A stretch of DNA of 12,244 nt from a virus (taxonomy: Duplodnaviria; Heunggongvirae; Uroviricota; Caudoviricetes). The stretch lies in IMG/VR virus record IMGVR_UViG_2681813321_000010. One strand, given 5' to 3'. The position numbers were made by a program, and so were the translations under genes. Positions 1-12,244 of this stretch are shown here, one piece after another; the stretch's first letter is position 1, and each line of letters opens with the position of its first letter. The notes under the pieces were generated by a model, which was given only the letters and a program-made list of their open reading frames with translations, ran no database searches and was not told where the DNA came from.

Positions 1-138
1 TGCCTGGTGCCTCCAGGTGACGTTAACCAGTTAACAATTAACGCCGGATACAGAGAATCCACCCATAACACTGTTTTTGGTTTTAACTGTTCCGCGTGCG
101 CTCAGCCGCATTCACCGCATCACAAAATTCACTTTAAA

Positions 139-193
139 AACGGCGGCAGAGCAGTCACGGAGTAAAACTGATACCGCCAAACGTCACCAGAAA
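139..193 (-). ncRNA. dicF: DicF small RNA, copy 1: an FtsZ-translation-inhibiting sRNA with an intrinsic terminator at its 3' end.
   Basis: The minus-strand sequence is UUUCUGGUGACGUUUGGCGGUAUCAGUUUUACUCCGUGACUGCUCUGCCGCCGUUUUU. This matches my memory of the 53-nt E. coli DicF, apart from a possible 1-nt difference at the 3' end. It lies about 340 nt downstream of ydfC on the same strand, as in K-12 Qin. Confidence 0.8.
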
Positions 194-533
194 ATTGATA
201 ACAGAGGGCGTTGCAGCGGGGTTGTCGCTTAAGCGTATGGTCAACCTGACAACCCGGTGTCCTCAACGGGGAAGGAATAACCCCGCCATACTTACCGCCG
301 CGCCATTTCGCGGAGTGCCACAACCGGAAGCGCACGGTCGACGAAAATTTAACGACAGGCTATCTATGAACCAGCTACCTCGCCGTGCGCTTTCGCGTTA
401 TGGTCTGACTTTTCATGGAAATATCCTTTCAGTAAACTGTCAGTGCCGGATGCTCACCCATGTCCGGCGCACGCACTCCACCTCACCCGTGGAGAACTCC
501 TTAATTACCAACCTTAGCTTCGTTGGTTAGCTA

Positions 534-752
534 TTAACGCGGGTATGTAATCATTCTGGCAATGCTTAATGCCGCTGCTTTTTCCAGCCTGGTGATATCC
601 TGCTCCAGAGCGGACAGATTTTCAGCCTGCTTAGCCCTGGCTTCATTGGCCCATTTCAGATCCTGCGCTGCATTAATTTTCTGGCGCATCCACTCATAAA
701 GTTCATCATCGGTATAGTCTGGCGAGATGATGACGGGTTCTCGTTTCTGCAT
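534..752 (-). CDS. ydfC: YdfC-like small protein (72 aa) from the dicA-ydfABC-dicF operon.
   Basis: 72-aa ORF in the position and with the size of K-12 Qin ydfC, which follows ydfB and precedes dicF. The gene symbol rests on synteny and size, recalled from memory. Confidence 0.65.
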   Translation of the reverse strand: MQKREPVIISPDYTDDELYEWMRQKINAAQDLKWANEARAKQAENLSALEQDITRLEKAAALSIARMITYPR

Positions 753-781
753 ACTGATTCCTCGCGGTGCTGCTTCGCTTA

Positions 782-910
782 TCAGCCGTTAGATTTTGCC
801 GAGCTGGAAAGCGCCTGTTTAAACTCACTGAAGCTGAGAGCTTCTTCGCCTTCGGCAAGGCCTTCGAAGTATTCTTCGTAAGCCTTTTCCATGATTGTGT
901 CGAAATCCAT
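782..910 (-). CDS. ydfB: YdfB-like small protein (42 aa, MDFDTIMEKAYEEYFEGLAEGEEALSFSEFKQALSSSAKSNG).
   Basis: 42-codon ORF below the ORF-track size cut-off, translated by hand. A GGTGAG Shine-Dalgarno sits 5 nt upstream. Its start lies 1 nt from the ydfA stop, a translational-coupling arrangement. Size and synteny match K-12 ydfB. Confidence 0.6.
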   Translation of the reverse strand: MDFDTIMEKAYEEYFEGLAEGEEALSFSEFKQALSSSAKSNG

Positions 911-911
911 A

Positions 912-1067
912 TCACTCACCTGAGTTTCTTTCCAGCCAGCGACGGGCACCATTTTCGGTTTTAAACGTTTTGCTTCTGGTATACGTCATCGCGGTAAACG
1001 TGCCGTCCTGGTTGGGAAACACGCCGTACACCAGAGATTCGTTGTTGCCAAGATCGATAGTATCCAT
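912..1067 (-). CDS. ydfA: YdfA-like small protein (51 aa, MDTIDLGNNESLVYGVFPNQDGTFTAMTYTRSKTFKTENGARRWLERNSGE).
   Basis: An internal ATG preceded by GAGG, giving a 51-aa product that matches K-12 ydfA in length. The ORF-track entry 912..1121 is an N-terminally over-extended version. The gene sits immediately downstream of dicA on the same strand. Confidence 0.65.
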   Translation of the reverse strand: MDTIDLGNNESLVYGVFPNQDGTFTAMTYTRSKTFKTENGARRWLERNSGE

Positions 1068-1147
1068 GCTGACCTCATTTCCCCTTAACGCTGGGGTAGC
1101 GGAACTGTTTGCTGAGAACACCGTGCGGTGTGTTGATGCAAATAAGA

Positions 1148-1199
1148 TTAGCCATGGCTAACATATAGGTCAAGTGATTTTGTATGTTATGGCTAACAT
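1148..1199. promoter_or_regulatory. Operator-like palindromes distal to dicA: TTAGCcatgGCTAA (1148-1161) and ATGTTAtggcTAACAT (1184-1199).
   Basis: Both are exact inverted repeats. The half-site core TTAG(C/T)/(G/A)CTAA recurs in the dicA-dicC intergenic region. Confidence 0.45.
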
Positions 1200-1233
1200 G
1201 ATTGATGTGGTAAAAGATAACTCATTGATGATG

Positions 1234-1641
1234 TTATCTTTTATTTGTCCGCTGACGGGCTTTTAGTAATTCTTCAAAGAGTTTATTGAAGTTTTTTACT
1301 CGAGCTCGCATTTCGGCGAGCTGGGTATCCTGTTCTGATTCTGGCAGTGCATTAAACAGCTCAAGGAGCTCTAGTTCTTTGGGGGATAAGGCAACTGGCT
1401 TCTCAACAGGTGGTGTTGGTTGCTTGTCTTCATCGCCAAATAGAATCCATGTTGGTGAGCATTGCAATACTTTGCTGAGGGCAAAAAGGTTCTTCCCTGT
1501 AGGTTCACTATCATCCCGTTCCCATTGTGATACAGACACATGGGAGATTTTCAGGGCTTTAGCAAGAGACCTTTGGGTGTGTTTGAGGTTTTTCCGACGA
1601 TACCTAATGCGTTCGCCGATAGTTAAATTTTTTGTTTCCAT
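1234..1641 (-). CDS. dicA: DicA repressor. It is an XRE-family HTH protein of 135 aa with no C-terminal S24 autopeptidase domain.
   Basis: The translation METKNLTIGERIRYRRKNLKHTQRSLAKALKISHVSVSQWERDD... is recognised as E. coli DicA. It is transcribed divergently from dicC. Confidence 0.9.
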   Translation of the reverse strand: METKNLTIGERIRYRRKNLKHTQRSLAKALKISHVSVSQWERDDSEPTGKNLFALSKVLQCSPTWILFGDEDKQPTPPVEKPVALSPKELELLELFNALPESEQDTQLAEMRARVKNFNKLFEELLKARQRTNKR

Positions 1642-1643
1642 AG

Positions 1644-1710
1644 TTAGCTAATGCTAAATCGTATTGACTATGTTTTTGTTAACATCTATTTTGTTAGTTA
1701 TGACTAACAA
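1644..1710. promoter_or_regulatory. dicA/dicC divergent control region. Contains palindromes TTAGCtaatGCTAA (1644-1657), TGTTAACA (1674-1681) and the perfect 8+4+8 palindrome TTGTTAGTtatgACTAACAA (1691-1710). Also contains a candidate PdicC: TTGACT (1664-1669), a 17-bp spacer and TATTTT (1687-1692).
   Basis: The inverted repeats and the -35/-10 spacing were read directly from the sequence. The 20-bp palindrome overlaps the -10/+1 of the putative dicC promoter. Confidence 0.5.
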
Positions 1711-1724
1711 TAAAGGTGTTTTAA

Positions 1725-1955
1725 ATGCTTAAAACTGACGCTCTTTTGTATTTCGGTTCAAAAACAAAACTTGCACAAGCAGCAGGTATTCGTTTGGCTT
1801 CGCTTTATAGCTGGAAAGGGGATTTAGTTCCCGAAGGTCGCGCGATGCGTCTACAGGAGGCATCTGGCGGGGAGCTTCAGTATGATCCCAAAGTTTATGA
1901 TGAATATCGTAAGACGAAGCGGGCGGGGCGGTTGAACAATGAAAATCACTCCTGA
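1725..1955 (+). CDS. dicC: DicC, a Cro-like HTH regulator of 76 aa.
   Basis: MLKTDALLYFGSKTKLAQAAGIRLASLYSW... is recognised as DicC. AAAGGTG Shine-Dalgarno upstream. Divergent from dicA. Confidence 0.85.
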   Translation: MLKTDALLYFGSKTKLAQAAGIRLASLYSWKGDLVPEGRAMRLQEASGGELQYDPKVYDEYRKTKRAGRLNNENHS

Positions 1956-2460
1956 ACAGGCTCGTGAGGCTCTGGATGCCTGGATATGTCGACCAGGAAT
2001 GACACAGGAGCAGGCGACGATATTAATCACTGAAGCATTCTGGGCTTTGAAAGAGCGCCCGAACATCGATGTTCAGCGTGTCACAGATGAAGGTGGCGCG
2101 GTTGATCAGCGAGCGCTTGGCGTTAATCGAGTGAAGATATTCGAACGCTGGAAGGCTATCGACACCAGGGATAAGCGTGAAAAGTTCACGGCGCTAGTGC
2201 CTGCGATTATGGAGGCTATCCGGATTAGTGATTTCAGGTTGTATCGTGAGATCAGTGATGGAAAAAGTATTACGTACATGATCGCCGGGTTAAATAAAGA
2301 ATATGGCGATGTGGTGGAATCCGGACTGCTTTTTGCAGATCCTGCCGTTGTAGATCGTGAAACTGACGAACTTATAGAAAAAGCAATTGCTTTCAAGCTT
2401 GCGTATCGACAGCAATACCAACAAAAAGCTGGATGGAATTATGAGTCTTCTTTTTGCTGA
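1939..2460 (+). CDS. ydfX: YdfX-like early-operon protein of 173 aa. It overlaps the dicC stop by 17 nt, which suggests translational coupling. Function unknown; possibly a CII/YdaT-like regulator.
   Basis: Long ORF with a start inside the dicC 3' end, paralogous to 6316..6837. In K-12 a truncated pseudogene, ydfX, directly follows dicC. The symbol rests on that synteny, recalled from memory. Confidence 0.6.
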   Translation: MKITPEQAREALDAWICRPGMTQEQATILITEAFWALKERPNIDVQRVTDEGGAVDQRALGVNRVKIFERWKAIDTRDKREKFTALVPAIMEAIRISDFRLYREISDGKSITYMIAGLNKEYGDVVESGLLFADPAVVDRETDELIEKAIAFKLAYRQQYQQKAGWNYESSFC

Positions 2461-3406
2461 ACGCCCACTGGTTATAAACACGCAGCTGGCAATGAAAATT
2501 GGCTTAAACGAAGCCATTGTTTTGCAACAACTGCACTACTGGTTGAGAGATACCAACTCCGGCATGGAATGTGATGGTGTTCGCTGGATTTATAACACAA
2601 CGGAACAATGGCTGGAACAGTTCCCATTCTGGTCAGAGTCAACGTTAAAGCGCGCGTTTGCAAGTCTGAAAACGCTGGGGCTTTTGCGTTGTGAAAAGCT
2701 CAATAAATCAAAGCGCGATATGACCAATTTCTACACGATCAACTACGGGAGCGAGCTTTTAGATGGTGGCAAATTGAGCGAATCCATCGGTTTAAAATGC
2801 GCCGCTCCATCAGGTCAAAATGACACGATGGAAGAGGTCAAAATGAAACGCTCCATTGGTTCAAAACGACTCAATGTCATCGGGTCAAAATGGCCTGATG
2901 ATCTTACAGAGAATACAACAGAGATTACTACAGAGAATAAAAAGACTTCTCGTCCGGAAGCTTCGCAACCGGACCCGCAGACGGTTGAACAGGATTTTTT
3001 AACCCGACACCCTGACGCGGTTGTGTTCAGTGCGAAAAAACGCCAGTGGGGCAGCCAGGAAGATTTGGCGTGTGCGCAGTGGATCTGGGGGCGAATCGTG
3101 AGTCTTTACGAGCAGGCCGCCAGCGATGATGGCGAGATTTCGCGACCGAAAGAACCCAACTGGACCGCATGGGCCAACGACGTGCGCACAATGCGGATGC
3201 TGGATGGCAGAACTCACAGACAAATTTGTGAAATGTTTGGTCGGGTGCAGCGGGATCCATTCTGGGTAAAAAATATCATGAGTCCGTCAAAGCTTCGCGA
3301 AAAATGGGATGAACTGGTTATCCGCCTGGGGCGTTCGTCTGTACAGCGTTGTGTGAATCATATTTCTGAGCCGGATACCGAAATTCCGCCGGGCTTCAGG
3401 GGGTAA
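2441..3406 (+). CDS. Lambda-O-like replication initiator or replisome organizer (321 aa from ATG 2441). Its N-terminal domain is winged-helix-like, a low-complexity linker is encoded by the iteron array, and a C-terminal domain follows.
   Basis: The ORF track gives a TTG start at 2387, but the ATG at 2441 overlaps the upstream stop by 20 nt and is the likelier start. The N-terminus LVINTQLAMKIGLNEAIVLQQLHYWL is typical of phage replication initiators. The in-gene iterons plus the AT-rich tract mirror the ori inside lambda gene O. Confidence 0.7.
   Translation: MSLLFAERPLVINTQLAMKIGLNEAIVLQQLHYWLRDTNSGMECDGVRWIYNTTEQWLEQFPFWSESTLKRAFASLKTLGLLRCEKLNKSKRDMTNFYTINYGSELLDGGKLSESIGLKCAAPSGQNDTMEEVKMKRSIGSKRLNVIGSKWPDDLTENTTEITTENKKTSRPEASQPDPQTVEQDFLTRHPDAVVFSAKKRQWGSQEDLACAQWIWGRIVSLYEQAASDDGEISRPKEPNWTAWANDVRTMRMLDGRTHRQICEMFGRVQRDPFWVKNIMSPSKLREKWDELVIRLGRSSVQRCVNHISEPDTEIPPGFRG
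2789..2950. repeat. ori-like iteron array inside the O-like gene. Five GGT(C/T)(A/T)AAA(T/C)G repeats with 22-25 bp periodicity (starts 2789, 2813, 2836, 2858, 2883), followed by an AT-rich ACAGAGAATA-repeat tract (2901-2950).
   Basis: Counted directly from the sequence. The encoded protein shows the matching repeats GQN/SIGSKR/VIGSKW. Confidence 0.6.
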
Positions 3407-3446
3407 GTGTTAATTTCTGGTCATGAGGTAATTTTCAGGAGGGCTT

Positions 3447-3869
3447 GTGGCAAAAGTTTTTACACAAGAAGAGCGGGAAAAAATTAAAGGGCAGGTTGTT
3501 GAACTCGTACGCCGGAGTGGGCGTGAGACGTTACGGCAACTGGAAGTCAAGACAGGTGCGACAAGATATCTGATGAGCGTTCTCGCAAGAGAGCTGGTTG
3601 CCAGCGGCGATGTATACAACTCTGGTTACGGGTTATTCCCGTCTGAACAGGCGCGTAAGGACTGGCAAAATGCCCGTAAAAAGCTCTCAAGGGCAAAGCT
3701 GAAGGAACCATCTGCGGTTGATCCGGACCTTATCTGGTCATTACCTGACGGAGAAATACGTCGCTACGACAGGCGTCAGAACATAATCTGTCGCGAGTGC
3801 CGGAAGAGTGAAGTTATGCAGCGCATACTAGCATTCTATCAGGGAAATGCTCGATATTTATTGAAGTGA
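3447..3869 (+). CDS. Conserved 140-aa protein downstream of the O-like gene. GTG start; function unknown. It occupies the position where a helicase loader (P/DnaC-like) would be expected.
   Basis: AGGAGGG Shine-Dalgarno 6 nt upstream of the GTG. Paralogue 7824..8231 is about 90% identical. Basic C-terminus with a single CxxC. Confidence 0.6.
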   Translation: MAKVFTQEEREKIKGQVVELVRRSGRETLRQLEVKTGATRYLMSVLARELVASGDVYNSGYGLFPSEQARKDWQNARKKLSRAKLKEPSAVDPDLIWSLPDGEIRRYDRRQNIICRECRKSEVMQRILAFYQGNARYLLK

Positions 3870-4121
3870 TGAGATTAAAGTTTATTAGTTCAGATATTGA
3901 TTGGCTCTTTTGTGGAGTAGGGTAGAGTTAGTGTGTTTGTCTGCTTGGTGCCAGCAGCGGATATGTTTAACAACAGAAAGCATTCAGCATGGTTAGTGGA
4001 TTTGCAAAGTGGATTAGGATTTGAGAAACTTTGATGAAGTTGTAAAGCTTGTTTCTATAAAAATAGAAATTTAACTAATAGTTAAACACACCTCCAGCTT
4101 CATTGAAAAGGATTATTAGCT

Positions 4122-4547
4122 ATGATTGATCCACTTATTAGAAACTTACAGAGTGATATTGCACTACTCCAGCTTTATATCGCGCAACGCAAACAGGCAG
4201 GCTTTCATGACATGGAAAGAATAATTGAGTCATTGACCATCTTTATGTTTCGCGCGCTGAAAATGGGTGAACTGGTAAACATGAATCAGATTAAAGTTAA
4301 TTTTCCCGCCATTGATTTAGCTGATAATAAAAACATGATAGCAGTTCAAGTTACTACGAATGCAAGTCCAGCAAAAATTAAAAAAACTATCGAATCTTTT
4401 GAGAAAATAAATGAAATAGGAGAGAGTCTGAAAGATAAATACTCTACTTTATATATTTTTGGTTTTAACTGTTCCGCGTGCGCTCAGCCGCATTCACCGC
4501 ATCACAAAATTCACTTTAAAAACGGCGGCAGAGCAGTCACGGAGTAA
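4122..4547 (+). CDS. AT-rich 141-aa ORF, possibly a truncated or chimeric N-terminal domain of an abortive-infection-type protein. It tentatively resembles a SMEK-type N-terminal domain. The last ~30 codons are encoded by the direct repeat.
   Basis: AAGGA Shine-Dalgarno 9 nt upstream. GC content is visibly far below the flanking sequence. The region from 4456 onward is shared with 74-165, where a different upstream reading frame fuses to the same tail FGFNCSACAQPHSPHHKIHFKNGGRAVTE. The stop codon lies inside the DicF copy-2 terminator on the opposite strand. Confidence 0.5.
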   Translation: MIDPLIRNLQSDIALLQLYIAQRKQAGFHDMERIIESLTIFMFRALKMGELVNMNQIKVNFPAIDLADNKNMIAVQVTTNASPAKIKKTIESFEKINEIGESLKDKYSTLYIFGFNCSACAQPHSPHHKIHFKNGGRAVTE

Positions 4548-4575
4548 AACTGATACCGCCAAACGTCACCAGAAA
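4521..4575 (-). ncRNA. dicF: DicF small RNA, copy 2. Identical to copy 1.
   Basis: Same sequence as 139-193, offset 4382. Confidence 0.8.
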
Positions 4576-4915
4576 ATTGATAACAGAGGGCGTTGCAGCG
4601 GGGTTGTCGCTTAAGCGTATGGTCAACCTGACAACCCGGTGTCCTCAACGGGGAAGGAATAACCCCGCCATACTTACCGCCGCGCCATTTCGCGGAGTGC
4701 CACAACCGGAAGCGCACGGTCGACGAAAATTTAACGACAGGCTATCTATGAACCAGCTACCTCGCCGTGCGCTTTCGCGTTATGGTCTGACTTTTCATGG
4801 AAATATCCTTTCAGTAAACTGTCAGTGCCGGATGCTCACCCATGTCCGGCGCACGCACTCCACCTCACCCGTGGAGAACTCCTTAATTACCAACCTTAGC
4901 TTCGTTGGTTAGCTA

Positions 4916-5134
4916 TTAACGCGGGTATGTAATCATTCTGGCAATGCTTAATGCCGCTGCTTTTTCCAGCCTGGTGATATCCTGCTCCAGAGCGGACAGA
5001 TTTTCAGCCTGCTTAGCCCTGGCTTCATTGGCCCATTTCAGATCCTGCGCTGCATTAATTTTCTGGCGCATCCACTCATAAAGTTCATCATCGGTATAGT
5101 CTGGCGAGATGATGACGGGTTCTCGTTTCTGCAT
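4916..5134 (-). CDS. ydfC: YdfC-like protein, copy 2. Identical to copy 1.
   Basis: Identical translation to 534..752. Confidence 0.65.
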   Translation of the reverse strand: MQKREPVIISPDYTDDELYEWMRQKINAAQDLKWANEARAKQAENLSALEQDITRLEKAAALSIARMITYPR

Positions 5135-5163
5135 ACTGATTCCTCGCGGTGCTGCTTCGCTTA

Positions 5164-5292
5164 TCAGCCGTTAGATTTTGCCGAGCTGGAAAGCGCCTGT
5201 TTAAACTCACTGAAGCTGAGAGCTTCTTCGCCTTCGGCAAGGCCTTCGAAGTATTCTTCGTAAGCCTTTTCCATGATTGTGTCGAAATCCAT
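5164..5292 (-). CDS. ydfB: YdfB-like 42-aa protein, copy 2.
   Basis: Offset copy of 782..910. Confidence 0.6.
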   Translation of the reverse strand: MDFDTIMEKAYEEYFEGLAEGEEALSFSEFKQALSSSAKSNG

Positions 5293-5293
5293 A

Positions 5294-5449
5294 TCACTCA
5301 CCTGAGTTTCTTTCCAGCCAGCGACGGGCACCATTTTCGGTTTTAAACGTTTTGCTTCTGGTATACGTCATCGCGGTAAACGTGCCGTCCTGGTTGGGAA
5401 ACACGCCGCATACCAGAGATTCGTTGTTGCCAAGATCGATAGTATTCAT
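5294..5449 (-). CDS. ydfA: YdfA-like 51-aa protein, copy 2 (D2N and Y14C relative to copy 1).
   Basis: Offset copy of 912..1067. The two amino-acid differences fall in the substitution cluster near the repeat boundary. Confidence 0.65.
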   Translation of the reverse strand: MNTIDLGNNESLVCGVFPNQDGTFTAMTYTRSKTFKTENGARRWLERNSGE

Positions 5450-5561
5450 GCTGACCTCATTTCCCCTTAACGCCGGGGTAGCGGAACTGTTTGCTGAGAA
5501 CACCGTGCGGTGTCTTGGTGGAGATTAATTTAGAATAACCTAACAAATGTAGCAAGTATTT

Positions 5562-5581
5562 TTGTTAGATTGGTCTAACAA
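5562..5581. promoter_or_regulatory. Operator-like 8+4+8 palindrome TTGTTAGAttggTCTAACAA distal to dicA'. An additional CCTAACAA half-site lies at 5539-5546.
   Basis: Exact inverted repeat. It has the same architecture as the module-A sites but different specificity positions (GA/TC instead of GT/AC). Confidence 0.45.
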
Positions 5582-5616
5582 AAAGAGTGAGGGAATCTAA
5601 GTATCTGAAAGGAGTG

Positions 5617-6024
5617 TTATTTTATTGATTTGTTTTTACGTGCTTTAAGCATTTCTTCGAAGAGTTTATTGAAATTCTCTACTCTTGCGCGCATTTCAGA
5701 CAGTAAGGCTTCCTGCTCGGAGGAGGGAAGAGCATCGAATAATTCGATCAATTCTTTGTGGCTGGGAGTTAACTCGGTTTCCACATGAAGTTCTTGTGCT
5801 GGCACTGGTGCCTTGTCTTCGTCACCAAACATTAGCCATGTAGGCGAGCACTTCAGCGCATCAGCTAAAGCAAATAACCGCTTCCCGACCGGTTGGGTTT
5901 CGTCTCTTTCCCATTGTGAAATTGTGACGTGAGCTACCCCAGCGAGGCGTGCAGCTTCTCGTTGTGTTAGGCGTAATTCTTTTCGTCGTGCCAGAACTCG
6001 CTGGCCTAGGGTTCTTGTATCCAT
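5617..6024 (-). CDS. Second, hetero-immune DicA-type repressor (135 aa). It has a different HTH recognition region and is about 55% identical to DicA.
   Basis: MDTRTLGQRVLARRKELRLTQREAARLAGVAHVTISQWERDE... shows the same domain layout and C-terminal half as DicA. The N-terminal DNA-binding half is substituted. Confidence 0.85.
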   Translation of the reverse strand: MDTRTLGQRVLARRKELRLTQREAARLAGVAHVTISQWERDETQPVGKRLFALADALKCSPTWLMFGDEDKAPVPAQELHVETELTPSHKELIELFDALPSSEQEALLSEMRARVENFNKLFEEMLKARKNKSIK

Positions 6025-6047
6025 AGTTAGGTAATTCTAATTTTTCT

Positions 6048-6092
6048 TGACTTAGGTATCCCGCGCACATTACTGTTAGGAATATCTAACAA
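6048..6092. promoter_or_regulatory. dicA'/dicC' control region. Contains a candidate -35 TTGACT (6048-6053) and the imperfect 8+4+8 palindrome cTGTTAGGaataTCTAACAa (6073-6092), directly upstream of the dicC' GAGGGGG Shine-Dalgarno.
   Basis: Read from the sequence. 6 of 8 arm positions are complementary. Confidence 0.4.
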
Positions 6093-6104
6093 GAGGGGGC
6101 TTTG

Positions 6105-6332
6105 ATGCTTAAAGTTGACGCAATTACTTTTTTTGGCAGCAAAACAAAACTTGCCAATGCCGCAGGAGTGAAACTGGCAAGTGTTGCTGCATGGGGGGAA
6201 CTGGTTCCTGAAGGTCGCGCGATGCGCCTGCAAGAGGCATCCGGCGGGGAACTTCAGTACGACCCCAAAGTTTATGACGAATATCGTAAGGCAAAGCGGG
6301 CGGGGCGGTTGAACAATGAAAATCACCCCTGA
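6105..6332 (+). CDS. Second DicC/Cro-like regulator (75 aa from the ATG at 6105). Its N-terminal HTH is diverged and its C-terminal half is identical to DicC.
   Basis: GAGGGGG Shine-Dalgarno. The ORF-track start at 6102 is a TTG one codon upstream. Confidence 0.8.
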   Translation: MLKVDAITFFGSKTKLANAAGVKLASVAAWGELVPEGRAMRLQEASGGELQYDPKVYDEYRKAKRAGRLNNENHP

Positions 6333-6837
6333 ACAGGTTTGTGAGGCTCTGGATGCCTGGGTATGCCGACCAGGAATGACACAGGAGCAGGCGACGATAT
6401 TAATCACGGAAGCATTCTGGGCTCTGAAAGAACGCCCGAACATCGATGTTCAACGCGTCACGTTTAATGATGGCGAGGTTGATCAACGGGCGTTGGGCGT
6501 TAACCGGGTGAAGATATTCGAACGCTGGAAAGCTATCGACACCAGGGATAAGCGGGAAAAATTCACGGCGCTGATTCCGGCAATTATGGAGGCTATCCGG
6601 ATCAGCGATTTCAGGTTGTATTGTGAAATTACTGACGGAAAAAGCATTACGTACATGATCGCCGGGTTAAACAAAGAATATGGTGATGTGGTGGAGTCCG
6701 GGCTGCTTTTTGCGGATCCATCTGTTGTGGAACGTGAGACTGACGAGCTTATAGAAAAAGCTATTGCTTTCAAGCATGCGTATCGTCAGCAATACCAACA
6801 AAAAGCTGGATGGAATTATGAGCCTTCTTTTTGCTGA
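6316..6837 (+). CDS. ydfX: YdfX-like 173-aa protein, module B. It overlaps the dicC' stop by 17 nt, as in module A.
   Basis: About 90% identical to 1939..2460. Confidence 0.6.
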   Translation: MKITPEQVCEALDAWVCRPGMTQEQATILITEAFWALKERPNIDVQRVTFNDGEVDQRALGVNRVKIFERWKAIDTRDKREKFTALIPAIMEAIRISDFRLYCEITDGKSITYMIAGLNKEYGDVVESGLLFADPSVVERETDELIEKAIAFKHAYRQQYQQKAGWNYEPSFC

Positions 6838-7783
6838 ACGCCCACTGGTTATAAACACACAGCTTGCGATGAAGATTGGCTTAAATGAAGCCATTGTGTT
6901 GCAGCAGTTGCATTACTGGTTGAGAGATACCAGTTCCGGTATGGAATGTGACGGGGTTCGCTGGATTTATAACACAACAGAACAATGGCTGGAACAGTTC
7001 CCGTTCTGGTCAGAGTCAACGTTAAAACGCGCATTTGCAAGTCTGAAAACGCTGGGGCTTTTGCGTTGCGAAAAGCTCAACAAATCAAAGCGTGATATGA
7101 CTAATTTTTACACGATTAATTACGAGAGTGAGCTTTTAGATGGTGGCAAAGTGAGCGAATCCATCAGGTCAAAATGCGCCGCTCCATCGGGTCAAAATGA
7201 CACGATGGAAGAGGTCAAAATGGCACGCTCCATTGGTTCAAAACGACCCAATGTCATCGGGTCAAAATGGCCTGATGATCTTACAGAGAATACAACAGAG
7301 ATTACTACAGAGAATAAAAACACTTCTCGTCCGGAAGCTTCGCAACCGGACCCGCAGACGGCTGAACAGGATTTTTTAACCCGACACCCTGACGCGGTTG
7401 TGTTCAGTGCGAAAAAACGCCAGTGGGGAAGTCAGGAAGATTTGGCGTGCGCACAGTGGATCTGGGGACGAATCGTGAGTCTTTACGAGCAGGCTGCCAG
7501 CGATGATGGCGAGATCACGCGACCGAAAGAACCAAACTGGACCGCATGGGCCAATGACGTGCGCACAATGCGGATGCTGGATGGCAGAAGCCACAGACAA
7601 ATTTGCGAAATGTTTGGTCGGGTACAGCGAGATCCATTCTGGGTAAAAAACATCATGAGCCCGTCAAAGCTTCGCGAAAAATGGGACGACCTGGTCATCC
7701 GCCTGGGGCGTTCACCTGTACAGTGTTGTGTGAATCATATTTCTGAACCGGATACCGAAATTCCGCCTGGTTTCAGGGGATAA
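6818..7783 (+). CDS. O-like replication initiator, module B (321 aa from ATG 6818).
   Basis: Paralogue of 2441..3406 with the same overlapping start context. Confidence 0.7.
   Translation: MSLLFAERPLVINTQLAMKIGLNEAIVLQQLHYWLRDTSSGMECDGVRWIYNTTEQWLEQFPFWSESTLKRAFASLKTLGLLRCEKLNKSKRDMTNFYTINYESELLDGGKVSESIRSKCAAPSGQNDTMEEVKMARSIGSKRPNVIGSKWPDDLTENTTEITTENKNTSRPEASQPDPQTAEQDFLTRHPDAVVFSAKKRQWGSQEDLACAQWIWGRIVSLYEQAASDDGEITRPKEPNWTAWANDVRTMRMLDGRSHRQICEMFGRVQRDPFWVKNIMSPSKLREKWDDLVIRLGRSPVQCCVNHISEPDTEIPPGFRG
7167..7327. repeat. ori-like iteron array, module B. Five GGT(C/T)CAAAA(T/C)G repeats (starts 7167, 7190, 7213, 7235, 7260) followed by an AT-rich ACAGAGAATA tract.
   Basis: Counted directly. 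Same periodicity as module A. Confidence 0.6.
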
Positions 7784-7823
7784 GTGGTGATTTTAGGGCA
7801 TAAAGTAATGTTCAGGAGGACTT

Positions 7824-8231
7824 ATGGCAAAAGTATTTACACAGGAAGAGCGGGAAAAAATTAAAGGACAGGTGGTGGAACTCGTGCGCCAGAGCGGTCG
7901 TGAGACGTTACGGCAACTGGAAGCTAAAACAGGTGCGACAAGATATCTGATGAGCGTTCTTGCCAGAGAGCTGGTTGCCAGTGGTGATGTATATCACTCT
8001 GGCTATGGGGTGTTCCCGTCAGAACGGGCTCGTAAGGACTGGCAAAACGCCCGCAAAAAACTCTCGAGGGCAAAGGTGAAGAAACCTGTTGTGGTTGATC
8101 CGGGCCTTATCTGGACATTACCCGACGGAGAAATACGCCGCTACGACAGGCGTATGAACATAATCTGTCGCGAGTGCCGGAAGAGCGAAGTTATGCAGCG
8201 TGTATTGGCGTTCTATCAGGGATATGCCTAG
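7824..8231 (+). CDS. Conserved 135-aa protein downstream of the O-like gene, module B.
   Basis: AGGAGGA Shine-Dalgarno. Paralogue of 3447..3869 with a shorter C-terminus. Confidence 0.6.
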   Translation: MAKVFTQEEREKIKGQVVELVRQSGRETLRQLEAKTGATRYLMSVLARELVASGDVYHSGYGVFPSERARKDWQNARKKLSRAKVKKPVVVDPGLIWTLPDGEIRRYDRRMNIICRECRKSEVMQRVLAFYQGYA

Positions 8232-8277
8232 AATTGTCACAGGTAATGAAATTAAAGAGTATTGGTTCGGATATGAA

Positions 8278-8307
8278 TTGACATTTTCGCGGCACAGAGC
8301 TAAAAAT
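8278..8307 (+). promoter_or_regulatory. Candidate sigma70 promoter at the start of the AT-rich island: TTGACA (8278-8283), a 17-bp spacer and TAAAAAT.
   Basis: Consensus -35 with canonical spacing, read from the sequence. It would give a ~300-nt leader before the SIR2-family ORF. Confidence 0.3.
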
Positions 8308-8599
8308 AGCCTACTTGTTGGTTTTGTGTGAAAAGCAGACATTTTGAGGCTCAGGATTTGTTATCAAATAAGACCAATACTTATCTATATTAATACACAT
8401 TAAATACTGTGCAATACATTATTGCATTTTATTAGATAAGCGATATTTAGGGAAAAGAAAAGTCATAGAAAACAGGCCGCTATTTGTTGTTGGATTTTAT
8501 AGGCTATATCTAGATTATCTTGCCACTGCGGTCTCTGTTTACCTAACAGCTTGGGCTTCTTTGCATGCAAGTTTGTAATAACAAGAGTAATCAAACGGA

Positions 8600-9631
8600 A
8601 TGTCTATTAATCCTAAACTTAAGCGTATCGCGCGACGCTATCCAGCGTTATTCCAATATGAGTCCCCCTATATGGCAAGAAAATTAATAATATTCGGCAA
8701 CGGTCTCGGTATGGCTTTAGATCCTGCTCACTTCTCCTTAGACAGAGCGTTGGAAGAAATTTGGCATCGCCCCAATTTTTTAAAAGATATCCACAAGCAA
8801 CTTATCGAGCGTTGTCTTCAGCGGCAAGGTCCACCAGAAGGAGAACATGAGTTGGATACCCTTCACCAGGCTGTCACATATTGTAAAGCTCTTGCTCAAA
8901 TTGGAGAGGGGAACGTGCATTGGCTTACTGAAGATGGACTAAACTTCCCCAAAATTACCGCCACTTATATTCACAAAGTTGCAACCAGGTTGCATAATTA
9001 CGATAAAGGTTTGCCACAAAGATTCGAAAATGCGCTTGTGGAGTTTGTAAAGAACACACACTCACATATCGCGACATTAAACTATGACAAATTATTATAC
9101 AATTCATTCATAGATAATGATATATTCAACGGGTATGATGGGGTTTTAGTTGATGGGATGCTAAGCCACGGATTTTCCTCTGCAGCGCTCGAACGGAAAT
9201 ACAATCGTAGGTTTGGTTATTATTTGCACTTGCATGGTTCACCACTATTTATTAATCAGCATGAAAATGTTTTAAAACTTTCACGCTCACAACTTACTCT
9301 TGACATAGATGAACCTAGTGAGCATATAGTGTTAACTCATATAAAAAGAAAACCGTCAGTTATAGCAGCATCTAATGTTCTTTCTACGTACTGGGATTAT
9401 TTGCAGTTTGCATTATTTGAATCAGAAGAAATAATATTGTTTGGTTACTCTGGTCTCGATATTCACCTTAACCTGCTTATTCGACCTTACCTAACCTCTA
9501 AGCCTTTAAGAGTAATTGAGTGGAGCGGTGCTGGTGAACAAAACGCTCGTGAGATATATTGGAAAAACCAGTTGAGACGGGAAGTTACTGTAATTAGGTT
9601 GGATAACATCACTGATTTTATTGATTGGTAG
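8600..9631 (+). CDS. Stand-alone SIR2-family (SIR2_2/ThsA-like NAD+-hydrolase fold) protein of 343 aa in an AT-rich island. Candidate anti-phage defence effector.
   Basis: Motifs seen in the translation: LIIFGNGLGMAL (Rossmann-like N-terminal loop), IATLNYD (the TTNYD-type catalytic Asn motif), YLHLHGS (catalytic His motif) and ILFGYSGLD (the FxGYSxxD motif). GC content is clearly lower than in the flanking phage genes. No SLOG, TIR, STAND or HerA partner is encoded nearby. Confidence 0.75.
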   Translation: MSINPKLKRIARRYPALFQYESPYMARKLIIFGNGLGMALDPAHFSLDRALEEIWHRPNFLKDIHKQLIERCLQRQGPPEGEHELDTLHQAVTYCKALAQIGEGNVHWLTEDGLNFPKITATYIHKVATRLHNYDKGLPQRFENALVEFVKNTHSHIATLNYDKLLYNSFIDNDIFNGYDGVLVDGMLSHGFSSAALERKYNRRFGYYLHLHGSPLFINQHENVLKLSRSQLTLDIDEPSEHIVLTHIKRKPSVIAASNVLSTYWDYLQFALFESEEIILFGYSGLDIHLNLLIRPYLTSKPLRVIEWSGAGEQNAREIYWKNQLRREVTVIRLDNITDFIDW

Positions 9632-9701
9632 CGCAATGCGAAGTTAAAGAGGCAGCCTCATATTTATCAGAGCTGGTGTACGTCCAATACAGGAGGTTAT
9701 C

Positions 9702-9791
9702 GTGCTGGTTCTCAAATGCGCGCTGGCTATTGCGGCTGTAGTGGCAATTTATTGTCTTGCTATTGTTCTTATGGATCGCCTTTCTGATTGA
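9702..9791 (+). CDS. Putative 29-aa hydrophobic single-TM peptide (MLVLKCALAIAAVVAIYCLAIVLMDRLSD). GTG start.
   Basis: Consensus AGGAGG 7 nt upstream of the GTG. The product has uniform hydrophobic composition and charged ends. It was not in the ORF track because it is below the size cut-off. Confidence 0.35.
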   Translation: MLVLKCALAIAAVVAIYCLAIVLMDRLSD

Positions 9792-10002
9792 TTTTATATT
9801 GGCGAGGTGACGGGAGTTAAGTAGAATTGCTGCGGGTGCTTGAGGCTGTCTGCCTCGGGCATGCCACCGTAAGGCAGACAGAGAAAAGCCCCAGTTAACA
9901 TTACGCGTCCTGCAAGACGCTTAACATTAATCTGAGGCCCAATCTATGCTTCACAAACGTAGGTTAGCCTCTTACGCGCCGAAAGGCAAGGAGAAGCAGG
10001 CT

Positions 10003-10158
10003 ATGAAGCAGCAAAAGGCGATGTTAATCGCCCTGATCGTCATCTGTTTAACCGTCATAGTGACGGCACTGGTAACGAGGAAAGACCTCTGCGAGGTACG
10101 AATCCGAACCGGCCAGACGGAGGTCGCTGTCTTCACAGCTTACGAACCTGAGGAGTAA
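10003..10158 (+). CDS. hokD: HokD (RelF), a Hok/Gef-family type I toxin of 51 aa. An in-frame upstream start at 9946 gives a 70-codon mok-like reading frame.
   Basis: MKQQKAMLIALIVICLTVIVTALVTRKDLCEVRIRTGQTEVAVFTAYEPEE is recognised as the Hok family and specifically HokD. AAGGAG Shine-Dalgarno. The leader contains a 10-bp-stem hairpin (9846-9881) typical of hok mRNAs. Confidence 0.85.
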   Translation: MKQQKAMLIALIVICLTVIVTALVTRKDLCEVRIRTGQTEVAVFTAYEPEE

Positions 10159-10226
10159 GAGACCAGGCGGGGGAGAAATCCCTCGCCACCGCTGATGTGT
10201 CAGGCATCCTCAACGCACCCGCACTT

Positions 10227-10258
10227 AACCCGCTTCGGCGGGTTTTTGTTTTTATTTT
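10227..10258 (+). terminator. Rho-independent terminator of the hokD transcript.
   Basis: CCCGC-TTCG-GCGGG stem-loop followed by TTTTTGTTTTTATTTT. Confidence 0.8.
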
Positions 10259-10374
10259 CAACGCATTTGAAGTTCTGGACGGTGTCGGAATAGAATCAAA
10301 AATACTTAAGTAGCGCGCAGGGATAAGAGGGATGGTCCCTTAAAGGGGAGAGCTAATTATCCGGAAGGATTCTG

Positions 10375-10626
10375 ATGATGAACATCGAAGAACTGCGTAA
10401 AATTTTTTGTGAAGATGGCCTCTATGCTGTGTGCGTTGAAAATGGAAATATTGTTAGTCATTACCGCATTGTGTGTTTGCGAAAGAATGGGGCTGCGTTA
10501 ATTAATTTTGTGGATGGTCGAGTGACAGACGGATTTATCTTGCGCGAAGGTGAGTTTGTCACTTCATTACAGGCACTGAAAGAGATCGGAATAAAAGCTG
10601 GCTTTTCTGCTTTTTCAGAAGAATAA
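10375..10626 (+). CDS. rem: Rem-like 83-aa protein.
   Basis: Size and position (between hokD and ydfU) match K-12 Qin rem. GGAAGG Shine-Dalgarno. The symbol rests on synteny and length, recalled from memory. Confidence 0.6.
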   Translation: MMNIEELRKIFCEDGLYAVCVENGNIVSHYRIVCLRKNGAALINFVDGRVTDGFILREGEFVTSLQALKEIGIKAGFSAFSEE

Positions 10627-10692
10627 ACTCATCTACAATCTTGCGCGGGGCTGAACTCCCGCTGAGTAACACCGTGCCGCCGGAGGAAACCG

Positions 10693-10971
10693 ATGGCACG
10701 CAACGCAAAATATTACAATCATGATAATTCGACCGTTCTTGCCCACACGCACGAGCGGTATTCTCACGCATTTAAGTCAGACTGGTACCAGCATCCCCCA
10801 TGCACTGAAGAACAGGCCGAATGGCTCATTCAGTGTTACCGCAGGCGCGGATGCGAGGTTAAAAAAGCCCTTAGCCTCGACTACCGTCACTGGATAATCT
10901 CCGTCGGGCTTCCTTACTCCGAACGCCCACCGCGTCTGTCCCGCACATTCCAGCAACGCATCTGGAGGTAA
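10693..10971 (+). CDS. Hypothetical 92-aa protein, translationally coupled to the downstream DUF968 gene.
   Basis: GGAGGA Shine-Dalgarno 5 nt upstream. The stop lies 1 nt before the next gene's start. Confidence 0.55.
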   Translation: MARNAKYYNHDNSTVLAHTHERYSHAFKSDWYQHPPCTEEQAEWLIQCYRRRGCEVKKALSLDYRHWIISVGLPYSERPPRLSRTFQQRIWR

Positions 10972-10972
10972 C

Positions 10973-12022
10973 GTGCGGGTATTACTTCGACCTGTTCTGG
11001 TACCGGAACTCGGGCTGGTGGTCCTTAAGCCCGGTCGCGAATCACTGCCGGTTTTTCATTGCGGCAGGGTGCTGGTGGAGCCGGAACCGAAAAGCATGCG
11101 CGGTCTGCCGTCCGGAGTCGTCCCTGCCGTTCGCCAGCCGCTGGCGGAGGATAAATCATTACTGCCATTTTTCAGCGATGAGCGTGTGATTCGTGCTGCT
11201 GGCGGCGCTGGCGCACTGTCTGACTGGCTCCTGCGTCATGTCAAATCCTGCCAGTGGCCTCATGGTGACTACCATCACAGTGAAACCGTCATACATCGTT
11301 ATGGTACCGGCGCAATGGTGTTGTGCTGGCACTGCGACAACCAGCTGCGCGACCAGACCTCCGAATCACTCGGGCAACTTGCTCACCAAAACCTGTCTGC
11401 ATGGATGATTGACGTCATACGCCATGCAATGAATGGCTCGCAGGAACGGGAATTATCGCTGGCTGAATTATCCTGGTGGGCGATCCGCAATCAGGTGGCG
11501 GACGCGCTACCGGAAGCGGTATTACGTCGTTCGCTGGGGTTGCGTGCGGAAAAAATCCGCTCAATGTACCGTGAAAGCGACATCGTACCGGGAGAGCAGA
11601 CCGCCACCAGCATACTGAAACAGCGCACAAAAAATCTTGCGCCGCTGCCTCACGCCCACCAGCAACAGAACCCGCCACAGGAAAAGACGGTGGTCAGCAT
11701 TGCTGTTGATCCGGAGTCTCCGGAATCTTTAATGAAGCGACCTAAACGTCGCCGTTGGGTAAATGAGAAATATACGCGCTGGGTAAAGACACAGCCGTGT
11801 GCGTGTTGTGGTAAGCCAGCCGACGATCCCCATCACCTGATTGGTCATGGTCAGGGCGGAATAGGGACAAAAGCCCACGATATTTTCACGCTACCGTTGT
11901 GCCGGGAGCATCACAACGAACTTCATGCTGATCCGCTGGCATTTGAAGAAAAGCATGGTTCCCAGATTGATTTAATTTTTCGTTTTCTTGATCGCGCCTT
12001 TGCAACCGGCGTGCTCGGGTAA
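10973..12022 (+). CDS. ydfU: DUF968-family lambdoid protein (YdfU/YdaW-like, 349 aa) with a C-terminal Cys/His-rich HNH-like motif.
   Basis: C-terminus CACCGKPADDPHHLIGHGQGG...LCREHHNELH. GGAGG Shine-Dalgarno before the GTG. Length and synteny with rem and hokD match Qin ydfU. Confidence 0.75.
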   Translation: MRVLLRPVLVPELGLVVLKPGRESLPVFHCGRVLVEPEPKSMRGLPSGVVPAVRQPLAEDKSLLPFFSDERVIRAAGGAGALSDWLLRHVKSCQWPHGDYHHSETVIHRYGTGAMVLCWHCDNQLRDQTSESLGQLAHQNLSAWMIDVIRHAMNGSQERELSLAELSWWAIRNQVADALPEAVLRRSLGLRAEKIRSMYRESDIVPGEQTATSILKQRTKNLAPLPHAHQQQNPPQEKTVVSIAVDPESPESLMKRPKRRRWVNEKYTRWVKTQPCACCGKPADDPHHLIGHGQGGIGTKAHDIFTLPLCREHHNELHADPLAFEEKHGSQIDLIFRFLDRAFATGVLG

Positions 12023-12034
12023 AAGAGGTTACTG

Positions 12035-12244
12035 ATGCGTATAGAGTTTGTTTTGCCTTACCCGCCGACGGTGAACACCTACTGGCGACGTCGTGGCAGC
12101 ACATATTTTGTGTCAAAAGCCGGTGAGCGTTATCGCCGGGATGTGGCACTTATTGTTCGCCAGCAGCGGCTGAAATTAAACCTGTCCGGAAGGCTGGCGA
12201 TAAAGATTATTGCAGAGCCACCGGATAAGCGCCGCCGCGACCTG
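12035..12244 (+). CDS. rusA: RusA-family Holliday-junction resolvase, 5' partial. It runs off the window end.
   Basis: LPYPPTVNTYW...YRRDVALIV...IKIIAEPPDKRRRDL matches the RusA pattern, including the PDxRRRDLDN motif. AAGAGG Shine-Dalgarno. Confidence 0.8.
   Translation, partial: MRIEFVLPYPPTVNTYWRRRGSTYFVSKAGERYRRDVALIVRQQRLKLNLSGRLAIKIIAEPPDKRRRDL

What the first reader, a model, noticed from the sequence alone, without database searches (positions are those of the whole stretch)
8232..9640. AT-rich moron island with a stand-alone 343-aa SIR2-family gene in the relBE slot upstream of hokD
The phage-homologous sequence of module B ends at about 8290. There the base composition drops sharply into a ~1.4 kb AT-rich block that carries one gene.

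Its product has the full motif set of prokaryotic defence-type SIR2 domains: a G-rich N-terminal loop, LNYD (TTNYD-type), HLHGS and FGYSGLD. It has essentially no accessory domain; only about 40 residues follow the SIR2 fold.

Known SIR2 defence proteins act with a partner or a fused sensor: ThsA-SLOG with ThsB, SIR2-HerA, SIR2-pAgo, and the large DSR and SIR2-STAND proteins. A minimal SIR2 alone in a lambdoid early-region hotspot is therefore unusual. K-12 Qin carries the relBE toxin-antitoxin in this exact position before hokD.

It could be a single-gene NAD+-depleting abortive-infection or superinfection-exclusion factor. Alternatively its sensor may be supplied in trans by the prophage.
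Basis: partly seen in the sequence, partly recalled or inferred. Interest (0 to 1): 0.8.

Follow-up and report, generated by a model that had tools for sequence, protein, structure and literature searches.

The report
Stand-alone SIR2 gene in prophage hotspot
A cryptic lambda-like prophage of E. coli carries, in a slot that sister prophages fill with other candidate anti-phage genes, a self-contained 1.37-kb AT-rich cassette encoding a 319-residue protein that is only a SIR2 (NAD-binding) domain with no partner gene, most likely a one-protein NAD-destroying anti-phage module that nobody has tested.

Summary
The observation largely holds. Window 8281-9648 is a 38% GC cassette between 48-52% GC prophage flanks. 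It carries one gene with intact SIR2 motifs.

Two corrections. The gene starts at 8672 (319 aa), not 8600 (343 aa). It is also not in the relBE position: E. coli KSC1031 has DUF977-SIR2-...-relB-relE-hokD, so these are two adjacent sites.

It is truly stand-alone. No neighbour is conserved across 77 genomes, and none of the 150 best-scoring cluster representatives (of 355 hits) exceeds 397 aa.

The DUF977-to-hok slot is a cargo hotspot. Sister prophages carry PADLOC candidates PDC-S33 and PDC-S39, a SMEK-domain gene with a methyltransferase, or a nuclease-ATPase there. The same cassette also recurs in a non-prophage islet.

Best reading: an infection-triggered, single-protein NADase acting by abortive infection, with sensing built into the enlarged helical lobe. 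Only fold, motifs, autonomy and context are shown; NADase activity, defence and trigger are inferred.

It is a new variant of a known kind. PGAP already calls it "SIR2 family protein". Interest is moderate.

The parts
8281..9648 (.). AT-rich cargo cassette (38.1% GC) inserted between the DUF977 gene and the conserved hok-proximal flank
   Evidence: Left edge: module A/B similarity ends at 8280. Right edge: from 9649 the sequence is shared at 91-93% with prophages carrying other cargo. GC values.
8323..8671 (+). Non-coding 5' region that travels with the gene; presumed own promoter or regulatory region (function not shown)
   Evidence: 8323-9645 aligns as one block at 86.9% to a non-prophage islet (L098). 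The upstream part is 83% identical with indels. No strong sigma-70 consensus was found inside it; the best promoter-like site, 8278-8307, lies at the cassette edge.
8600..8671 (+).
   Evidence: Substitutions fall evenly over codon positions at 78-79% identity. The extension is absent from or unrelated in homologues outside the closest subclade. It keeps a fixed length and an LRYPxLF motif in 11 close homologues, so translation is not fully excluded.
8672..9631 (+). SIR2-domain protein, 319 aa (WP_000101550.1, annotated 'SIR2 family protein'). Motifs in 319-aa numbering: GNGLGM 9-14, TLNYD 135-139, HLHGS 186-190, GYSGLD 258-263.
7824..8231 (+). DUF977 gene, the conserved left flank of the cargo slot
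   Evidence: PGAP annotation; Pfam DUF977 E 1.7e-29 for the E. albertii counterpart of this gene (L002:7880-8287); it precedes the variable slot in sister prophages.
9702..9791 (+). Unannotated 29-codon hydrophobic ORF with an AGGAGG ribosome-binding site. It belongs to the conserved right flank, not to the cargo.
   Evidence: Intact in four prophage backgrounds with different cargo.
9834..10008 (+). hok/sok leader (Rfam sok RF01794, 116 bits) preceding hokD
10003..10158 (+). hokD (type I toxin), right-hand landmark of the slot
3904..4455 (+). The equivalent slot of the other early-region module in the window: an AT-rich block (34.8% GC) with the first ~111 codons of a SMEK-domain gene (ORF from 4122), cut at the module junction

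Best explanation
The gene at 8672-9631 encodes a self-sufficient single-domain SIR2 enzyme. It is carried as a mobile 1.3-1.4 kb cassette (gene plus its own 5' region) in a cargo hotspot of a Qin/DicB-type lambdoid prophage.

The most likely function is anti-phage defence by NAD+ hydrolysis (abortive infection or growth arrest). In this reading the enzyme is kept inactive in uninfected cells and is switched on directly by a phage-derived protein or small molecule. Sensing would reside in the SIR2 fold itself. The family-specific, highly conserved helical lobe (about residues 15-130, with the invariant GEHELD and YIHKVAT-LHN motifs) is the best candidate for the sensor. Activation would probably go with a change of oligomeric state, as in other defence SIR2 proteins.

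Shown: real gene and its start, SIR2 fold, intact catalytic motifs, absence of any partner or fused domain, mobility of the cassette, hotspot context.

Inferred: NADase chemistry, defence phenotype, trigger, oligomeric activation.
For: Fold and motifs:
- Pfam SIR2_2 is above its gathering cutoff for this protein and matches 31 of 31 family members.
- The AF2 model has pLDDT 86.5 and pTM 0.87.
- Foldseek top hits are the SIR2 subunits of SIR2-HerA/Nezha (E 1.3e-10).
- G9-N10-G11, N137, D139, H186 and H188 are invariant or nearly so.
- Only two cysteines are present, so there is no sirtuin zinc module (sequence).

Autonomy:
- No neighbour cluster occurs in more than 5 of 77 loci.
- 355 cluster representatives match, and none of the 150 best-scoring ones exceeds 397 aa.

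Context:
- The DUF977-to-hok slot carries, in sister prophages, full-length PDC-S33 (RelA_SpoT, 1e-118), PDC-S39 (8e-103), a 932-aa protein with a Cap4/LmuA-like nuclease, AAA_22 and SEC-C, or SMEK plus a methyltransferase.
- Two diverged SIR2 alleles occupy this slot in 30 and 16 complete E. coli genomes.
- The cassette also sits beside tacA/tacT and an IS110 remnant.
- Immediate neighbours in 77 genomes hit 149 PADLOC families. An equal number of genes 6.5-9.5 kb away hit 33.
- Neighbours include integrases, transposases, a reverse transcriptase, AriA-like ATPases and a ThiF-JAB protein.

Precedent: a single-gene 'sole-Sir2' is an NADase, and a close homologue protects against T2 and T4.
Against: - No activity or phenotype data exist for this family.
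- It has no dedicated model in PADLOC. The best hits across the family are weak: PDC-S21 3.5e-9 and Aga_SIR2 1.2e-8.
- There is no homologue in 50,697 phage records by tblastn, none in BFVD by fold, and only one plasmid copy.
- Many homologues sit among housekeeping genes such as lepA, gatB and carB. Three Rhodobacteraceae copies lie directly downstream of the NAD-salvage gene pncB.
- The sequence is unusually well conserved for a defence protein: 38-80% identity across proteobacterial classes, Chloroflexi and Verrucomicrobiota.
- How a bare SIR2 domain would avoid killing its host is unexplained.
- The PADLOC near/far comparison counts families, not proteins, and uses crude ORF calls.
Confidence: 0.5

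Rival explanations
1. It is an NAD+-dependent protein-modifying enzyme (deacylase or ADP-ribosyltransferase) acting on a specific host or phage protein, not a bulk NADase. It could serve physiology or virulence, like the DUF4917 protein SliP of Campylobacter jejuni, or it could defend by modifying a phage target.
For: - 23 of 31 family members also match Pfam DUF4917 (best E 7e-8).
- The only studied DUF4917 protein, SliP, was reported to have lysine deacetylase activity (PMC10421069).
- The motifs kept here are the same ones used by deacylating sirtuins.
- High sequence conservation, and frequent housekeeping neighbours including pncB, fit a metabolic or regulatory enzyme.
Against: - This protein itself does not reach E <= 1 for DUF4917.
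- It lacks the Cys4 zinc module of canonical sirtuins.
- The patchy distribution (46 of 5426 complete E. coli genomes), the AT-rich cassette and the hotspot location argue against a housekeeping role.
Confidence: 0.2
2. It is the effector of a split system whose sensor or activator is encoded elsewhere. The sensor could be a signal-producing enzyme or a prophage gene acting in trans.
For: - All well-studied defence SIR2 proteins need a partner or a fused sensor (established knowledge of Thoeris, SIR2-HerA, DSR and SPARSA).
Against: - No gene co-occurs with it within 10 kb in 77 genomes.
- The cassette moves alone between a prophage slot, a TA-bearing islet and plain chromosomal sites in distant taxa. 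A dedicated unlinked partner would have to be present in all of them.
Confidence: 0.1
3. It is an inert or decaying passenger gene of a defective prophage with no current function.
For: The host prophage in strain 12A looks defective: its terminase is a pseudogene next to an IS66 element. No strong promoter consensus lies inside the cassette's 5' region.
Against: - The ORF is intact in 46 complete E. coli genomes, in two alleles.
- Substitutions between alleles show clear third-position bias ([23,17,53]).
- About 60 positions are invariant across 31 members down to 57% identity.
Confidence: 0.05

Closest known systems
SIR2 subunit of SIR2-HerA (Nezha) anti-phage systems (PDB 8w9l, 8j4u, 8sub)
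   Different: Only about 15% sequence identity. No HerA gene lies next to it in any of 77 loci. The PADLOC SIR2 model matches only weakly (E 5e-5). In SIR2-HerA, activity depends on the HerA complex.
Thoeris ThsA and Kongming KomC (SIR2 effectors activated by a small-molecule signal)
   Different: There is no SLOG domain, and no ThsB/TIR or KomA/KomB neighbours.
Single-protein SIR2 defences: DSR1/DSR2 and 'sole-Sir2' (bioRxiv 10.1101/2024.12.27.630466)
   Same: One gene, a SIR2 NADase and no partner. Sole-Sir2 is small (about 440 aa); a close homologue of it protected against T2 and T4.
   Different: DSR proteins are about 1000 aa with a large sensor domain. Sole-Sir2 has an extra N-terminal domain and a DSR2-like SIR2. 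This protein is 319 aa and consists of the SIR2 fold only. A sequence relationship to sole-Sir2 could not be tested because its sequence was not at hand.
Pfam DUF4917 (PF16263), including C. jejuni SliP, and the PADLOC candidate PDC-S21
   Same: Similar size (about 320-340 aa) and SIR2-like. 23 of 31 family members match DUF4917 and 23 of 31 match PDC-S21 at weak E-values.
   Different: The matches are weak: best 7e-8 for DUF4917 and 3.5e-9 for PDC-S21, the latter covering only about two thirds of the model. The window protein itself misses DUF4917. SliP is described as a secreted deacetylase, not a defence protein.
Cargo hotspots of temperate phages (P2/P4 hotspots, lambdoid morons)
   Same: There is a fixed site between conserved phage genes (DUF977 and the hok flank) with interchangeable AT-rich cargo, much of it candidate defence genes.
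   Different: I did not find this particular slot of Qin/DicB-type prophages described in the papers searched. That search was limited.

Membership tests
SIR2 superfamily (Pfam SIR2_2, PF13289) | Profile match above the curated cutoff | tested here: met
   26.1-26.3 bits against a 24.5 cutoff, E about 1e-5. All 31 of 31 family members match. The margin is small.
SIR2 superfamily | Rossmann-type SIR2 fold | tested here: met
SIR2 superfamily | Glycine-rich NAD loop, N/D motif and catalytic His | tested here: met
   GNGLG 9-13, TLNYD 135-139 and HLHGS 186-190 are invariant or nearly so in 31 sequences. Their equivalence to catalytic residues of solved enzymes rests on motif position, not on superposition.
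Canonical sirtuin deacylases (CobB/SIRT type) | Cys4 zinc-binding module | tested here: not met
   Only two cysteines (C47, C71) in the 319 residues and no CxxC pairs (sequence).
SIR2-HerA (Nezha) | Adjacent HerA ATPase gene | tested here: not met
   No neighbour is conserved in 77 loci. In the window the neighbours are DUF977 and hokD.
Thoeris (ThsA) | C-terminal SLOG (or Macro) sensor domain and a ThsB/TIR partner | tested here: not met
   The whole 319 aa is one SIR2 fold. No TIR family is among the 25 listed (of 73) Pfam families hit by neighbours.
DSR1/DSR2 | About 1000-aa protein with a large non-SIR2 sensor region | tested here: not met
   319 aa, and no member among the 150 best-scoring cluster representatives is longer than 397 aa.
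Short pAgo-associated SIR2 (SPARSA) | APAZ domain and an adjacent short pAgo | tested here: not met
   Only weak Aga_SIR2 matches over the SIR2 core (E 3e-6). No conserved neighbour.
Pfam DUF4917 (PF16263) | Profile match | tested here: inconclusive
   The window protein has no hit at E <= 1. 23 of 31 relatives hit at E <= 0.01, best 7e-8.
PADLOC candidate PDC-S21 | Full-length profile match | tested here: not met
   E 8e-6 to 1.5e-5 over model positions about 18-213 of 336. The best in the family is 3.5e-9.
Anti-phage NADase (functional class) | NAD+ glycohydrolase activity and protection from phage | not testable with these tools
   Needs the biochemistry and plaque assays listed under next steps.

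The most novel reading that the evidence does not exclude
A bare 319-residue SIR2 domain is a complete immune system. Its own enlarged helical lobe, with the invariant GEHELD and YIHKVAT-LHN motifs, would directly recognise a phage protein or phage-made metabolite. That would switch on NAD+ hydrolysis, probably through oligomer or filament assembly, without any partner or fused sensor. This would make it the smallest SIR2 defence unit and a tractable model for how SIR2 effectors are gated.
Probability: 0.3. Interest if true: 0.7.

Novelty: new variant of a known kind. Interest (0 to 1): 0.5.

Why it matters
SIR2 NADases are among the commonest effectors of bacterial immunity. In every well-understood case a separate protein or fused domain does the sensing.

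If this family defends on its own, a discrete and compact set of proteins with no fusions and no linked partner would be a minimal system for asking how a SIR2 active site is held off and released. The family has about 350 cluster representatives at 50% identity, and its full-length members are 310-380 aa.

The work also defines a cargo hotspot in Qin/DicB-type prophages, immediately after the DUF977 gene. Its contents (PDC-S33, PDC-S39, SMEK, a nuclease-ATPase, SIR2) make a ready shortlist of single-gene defence candidates in E. coli.

If the gene proves instead to be a protein-modifying sirtuin, it would give a function to part of the DUF4917/SIR2_2 grey zone.

Tried and rejected
- Sequence search of solved structures with the family profile found nothing relevant (best E 0.14, a hemin-binding protein).
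- NCBIfam gave no hit and PHROGs no meaningful hit.
- Nucleotide and protein searches of 50,697 phage records found nothing. The BFVD fold search found nothing at E <= 1e-3. The AFDB fold library was not available.
- Literature searches for WP_000101550, PDC-S21 and stand-alone SIR2 phrases found no study of this family. Vassallo et al. 2022 mention a Sir2 homologue among their systems, but no PD-* PADLOC model matches this protein.
- I rejected a conserved partner gene.
- I rejected the 343-aa reading.
- I rejected the idea that the 29-codon hydrophobic ORF at 9702-9791 is a cargo-encoded partner or antitoxin. It belongs to the conserved flank shared by prophages with other cargo.
- I rejected the claim that SIR2 replaces relBE at one site.
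- I looked for a clear sigma-70 promoter inside the cassette's 5' region and found none above the scan threshold.

Full report
**What is in the sequence**

The window holds two diverged tandem copies of a Qin/DicB-type lambdoid early region. Positions 74-3903 match 4456-8280 at 87% identity, and the similarity stops at 3903/8280. Window 4456-12244 is 100% identical to a prophage integrated next to yccA in E. coli O111:H2 strain 12A.

After 8280, GC falls to 38.1% over 8281-9648. The left flank is 48.4% and the right flank 52.1%.

The right edge of the island is 9648. From 9649 onward the sequence is shared at 91-93% with sister prophages that carry entirely different cargo. That shared flank contains three things:
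- a 29-codon hydrophobic ORF at 9702-9791;
- the hok/sok leader at 9834-10008 (Rfam sok, 116 bits);
- hokD at 10003-10158.

The island therefore holds one gene plus about 390 bp of upstream non-coding DNA and 17 bp downstream.

**The gene and its start**

The ORF is open from 8600 (343 aa). The evidence nevertheless puts the start at 8672 (319 aa, MARKLIIFGNGLG):
- PGAP annotates it that way, as WP_000101550.1, "SIR2 family protein".
- Homologues in 77 other genomes all align from residue 1 of the 319-aa form, and their upstream extensions are unrelated.
- DNA similarity to the Klebsiella homologue begins exactly at 8672.
- Between three diverged E. coli-type alleles, the 24 upstream codons are 78-79% identical with substitutions spread evenly over codon positions ([5,6,4] and [7,5,4]). 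This resembles the non-coding upstream region (83%).
- The core, by contrast, is 90% identical with a clear third-position bias ([23,17,53] and [23,17,61]).

One caveat remains. Eleven close homologues keep the extension at 24 codons with an LRYPxLF motif. Translation from 8600 in this subclade is therefore not fully excluded.

**What the protein is**

- Pfam SIR2_2 scores just above its cutoff (26.1 against 24.5 bits) and matches all 31 aligned relatives. 23 of these also match DUF4917.
In 319-aa numbering, GNGLGM is at 9-14, TLNYD at 135-139, HLHGS at 186-190 and GYSGLD at 258-263. They are invariant or nearly so down to 57% identity.
- An AlphaFold2 model built on that alignment is confident (pLDDT 86.5, pTM 0.87).
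- Foldseek against the PDB returns the SIR2 subunits of SIR2-HerA/Nezha first (E 1.3e-10). CobB and SIRT2 come further down.
- The whole chain is one SIR2 fold with a large helical lobe (about residues 15-130). There is no extra domain.
- Only two cysteines are present, so the sirtuin zinc module is absent.
- The profile finds no solved structure by sequence.
- PADLOC models match only weakly across the whole family: best PDC-S21 3.5e-9 and Aga_SIR2 1.2e-8.

**Is it really alone?**

A scan of one genome per species returned 80 loci (L002-L081; 112 candidate stretches passed tblastn confirmation). They come from Enterobacterales, Pseudomonas, Stenotrophomonas, Xanthomonas, Acinetobacter, Rhodobacteraceae, Chloroflexi and Verrucomicrobiota. 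Nearly all copies are about 320 aa.

I called ORFs in these loci and clustered all neighbours; the homologue was recovered as an ORF in 77 of the loci. No neighbour cluster is present in more than 5 of the 77.

A profile search of 1.84 billion cluster representatives found only 355 relatives at E <= 1e-3. None of the 150 best-scoring ones exceeds 397 aa. The family is small, discrete and, as far as sampled, not fused to another domain.

**Context**

*The slot is a cargo hotspot.* The site right after the DUF977 gene is variable. Contexts of the identical HokD protein, plus E. coli strain C3, show the following cargo between DUF977 and the hok flank:
- a 341-aa RelA_SpoT protein;
- a 595-aa DUF7380/EMARD_N protein;
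- a 932-aa protein with Cap4-nuclease-like, AAA_22 and SEC-C domains;
- two unknown genes;
- small phage ORFs;
- a SMEK-domain gene with a methyltransferase.

Against PADLOC, the RelA_SpoT protein is a full-length PDC-S33 (1e-118) and the 595-aa protein a full-length PDC-S39 (8e-103). The SMEK protein matches the N-terminal part of a pAgo-associated nuclease model (1e-20).

*Distribution in E. coli.* The SIR2 cassette occurs in 46 of 5426 complete E. coli genomes, always on the chromosome. 30 copies are at 99% identity or more, and 16 are a second allele at 80-90%.

*relBE is a separate site.* The second allele, in strain KSC1031, sits in the same slot of a prophage that also has relBE: DUF977-SIR2-(IS remnant)-ydfW-flxA-ydfV-relB-relE-hokD. 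SIR2 and relBE are therefore not alternatives at one site. In K-12-type prophages the relBE block lies inside the hok/sok leader.

*The cassette moves on its own.* Block 8323-9645 recurs at 86.9% identity, 5' region included, in a non-prophage islet beside tacA/tacT and an IS110 remnant.

*Contexts elsewhere.* The gene lies in short islets among chromosomal genes, for example between a LysR regulator and an AAA_28-like gene in Klebsiella pneumoniae. The 117 immediate neighbours across the loci hit 149 PADLOC families at E <= 1e-5. These include AriA, a reverse transcriptase, HEC-05, several PDC-S families and a type IV restriction enzyme. The same number of genes 6.5-9.5 kb away hit 33 families, mostly from one or two methyltransferases. 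Five neighbours are integrases. Others are transposases or a ThiF-JAB protein. Several are plain housekeeping genes, and in three Rhodobacteraceae loci the upstream gene is pncB.

*Not a typical phage gene.* No sequenced phage carries a homologue, and only one plasmid does.

**How it most likely works**

The fold, the intact NAD-binding and catalytic motifs, and the missing zinc module point in one direction. So do the structural ranking, with most defence NADases above the deacylases, and the location in a hotspot that otherwise carries candidate single-gene defences. Together they make an infection-triggered NAD+ hydrolase the best-supported reading (about 0.5).

There is no partner and no extra domain, so sensing would have to be intrinsic. 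The conserved helical lobe is the obvious candidate, with invariant E58, E60 and D62 in GEHELD and the YIHKVAT-LHN stretch. Oligomeric switching is the usual activation route among the structural neighbours. Both points are inference.

Rival explanations:
- A protein-modifying sirtuin in the manner of the DUF4917 protein SliP (0.2).
- An effector whose activator is unlinked (0.1).
- A functionless passenger gene (0.05). The purifying selection seen argues against this.

**Comparison with what is known, and verdict**

The protein is a member of the SIR2 superfamily. It is not a member of SIR2-HerA, Thoeris, DSR, SPARSA or the canonical sirtuin deacylases, because each has a defining feature that was tested here and not met. 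Its relation to DUF4917 and PDC-S21 is distant or unresolved.

Single-gene SIR2 defence has precedents in DSR1/DSR2 and in "sole-Sir2" (about 440 aa, with an extra N-terminal domain). SIR2-only effectors also exist (KomC, FAM118B).

This is therefore a new variant of a known kind: a domain-minimal, partner-less SIR2 family, already annotated generically in RefSeq but uncharacterised. The gene length, the "relBE slot" and the trans-sensor idea do not. Interest is moderate (0.5). It would rise if autonomous sensing by a bare SIR2 domain were demonstrated.

Noticed in passing
window 1-4466 and 4456-12244 (junction 4456-4466): The window is a head-to-tail join of two different Qin/DicB-type early regions. 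Positions 1-4466 are 99.2% identical to the E. coli C3 prophage, and 4456-12244 are 100% identical to the O111:H2 12A prophage. The join lies in an 11-bp microhomology (TTTTTGGTTTT) and cuts a SMEK-domain gene after about 111 codons. None of 5426 complete E. coli genomes shows this tandem. It may be a real rearrangement or an assembly chimera.
   Followed up: partly
window 9702-9791 (+): An unannotated 29-codon hydrophobic ORF (VLVLKCALAIAAVVAIYCLAIVLMDRLSD) with a GTG start and AGGAGG 6 nt upstream, just before the hok/sok leader. It is intact in four prophage backgrounds with different cargo and is truncated by the cargo insertion in L089.
   Followed up: partly
L089, L093/L094, L095, L090, L087 (slot between DUF977 and hokD): Sister prophages fill the same slot with PADLOC candidates PDC-S33 (RelA_SpoT, 341 aa) and PDC-S39 (595 aa), a 932-aa Cap4/LmuA-like nuclease-AAA_22-SEC-C protein, two unknown genes, or SMEK plus a methyltransferase and a hypothetical gene. 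This looks like a defence-cargo hotspot of Qin/DicB-type prophages.
   Followed up: partly
L088/L091/L086 (K-12 Qin type) versus window 9834-10260: In K-12-type prophages the relB-relE-ydfV-flxA block splits the hok/sok leader. Window 9834-10004 matches about 3.3 kb upstream of the part that matches 9989-10260, with a 16-bp overlap.
   Followed up: no
L069, L077, L079 (Rhodobacteraceae): The SIR2 homologue lies directly downstream of, and on the same strand as, nicotinate phosphoribosyltransferase (pncB, NAD salvage). An RF-1-domain (ArfB-like) gene lies on the other side. This could be a functional link to NAD metabolism or just shared synteny of related genomes.
   Followed up: partly
window 141-192 (-) and 4523-4574 (-): Two copies of the DicF small RNA (Rfam RF00039, 72.5 bits each), one per early-region module.
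   Followed up: no
window 8600-8671: The 24-codon in-frame extension upstream of the SIR2 start evolves like non-coding DNA. Even so, it keeps its length and an LRYPxLF-coding motif in 11 close homologues. This could reflect a conserved regulatory or leader element rather than protein.
   Followed up: partly
PMC10421069 (C. jejuni sliP locus): The paper states that the DUF4917 gene sliP is in an operon with a type I restriction R-subunit gene. That is a defence-like neighbourhood for a protein described as a secreted virulence sirtuin.
   Followed up: no
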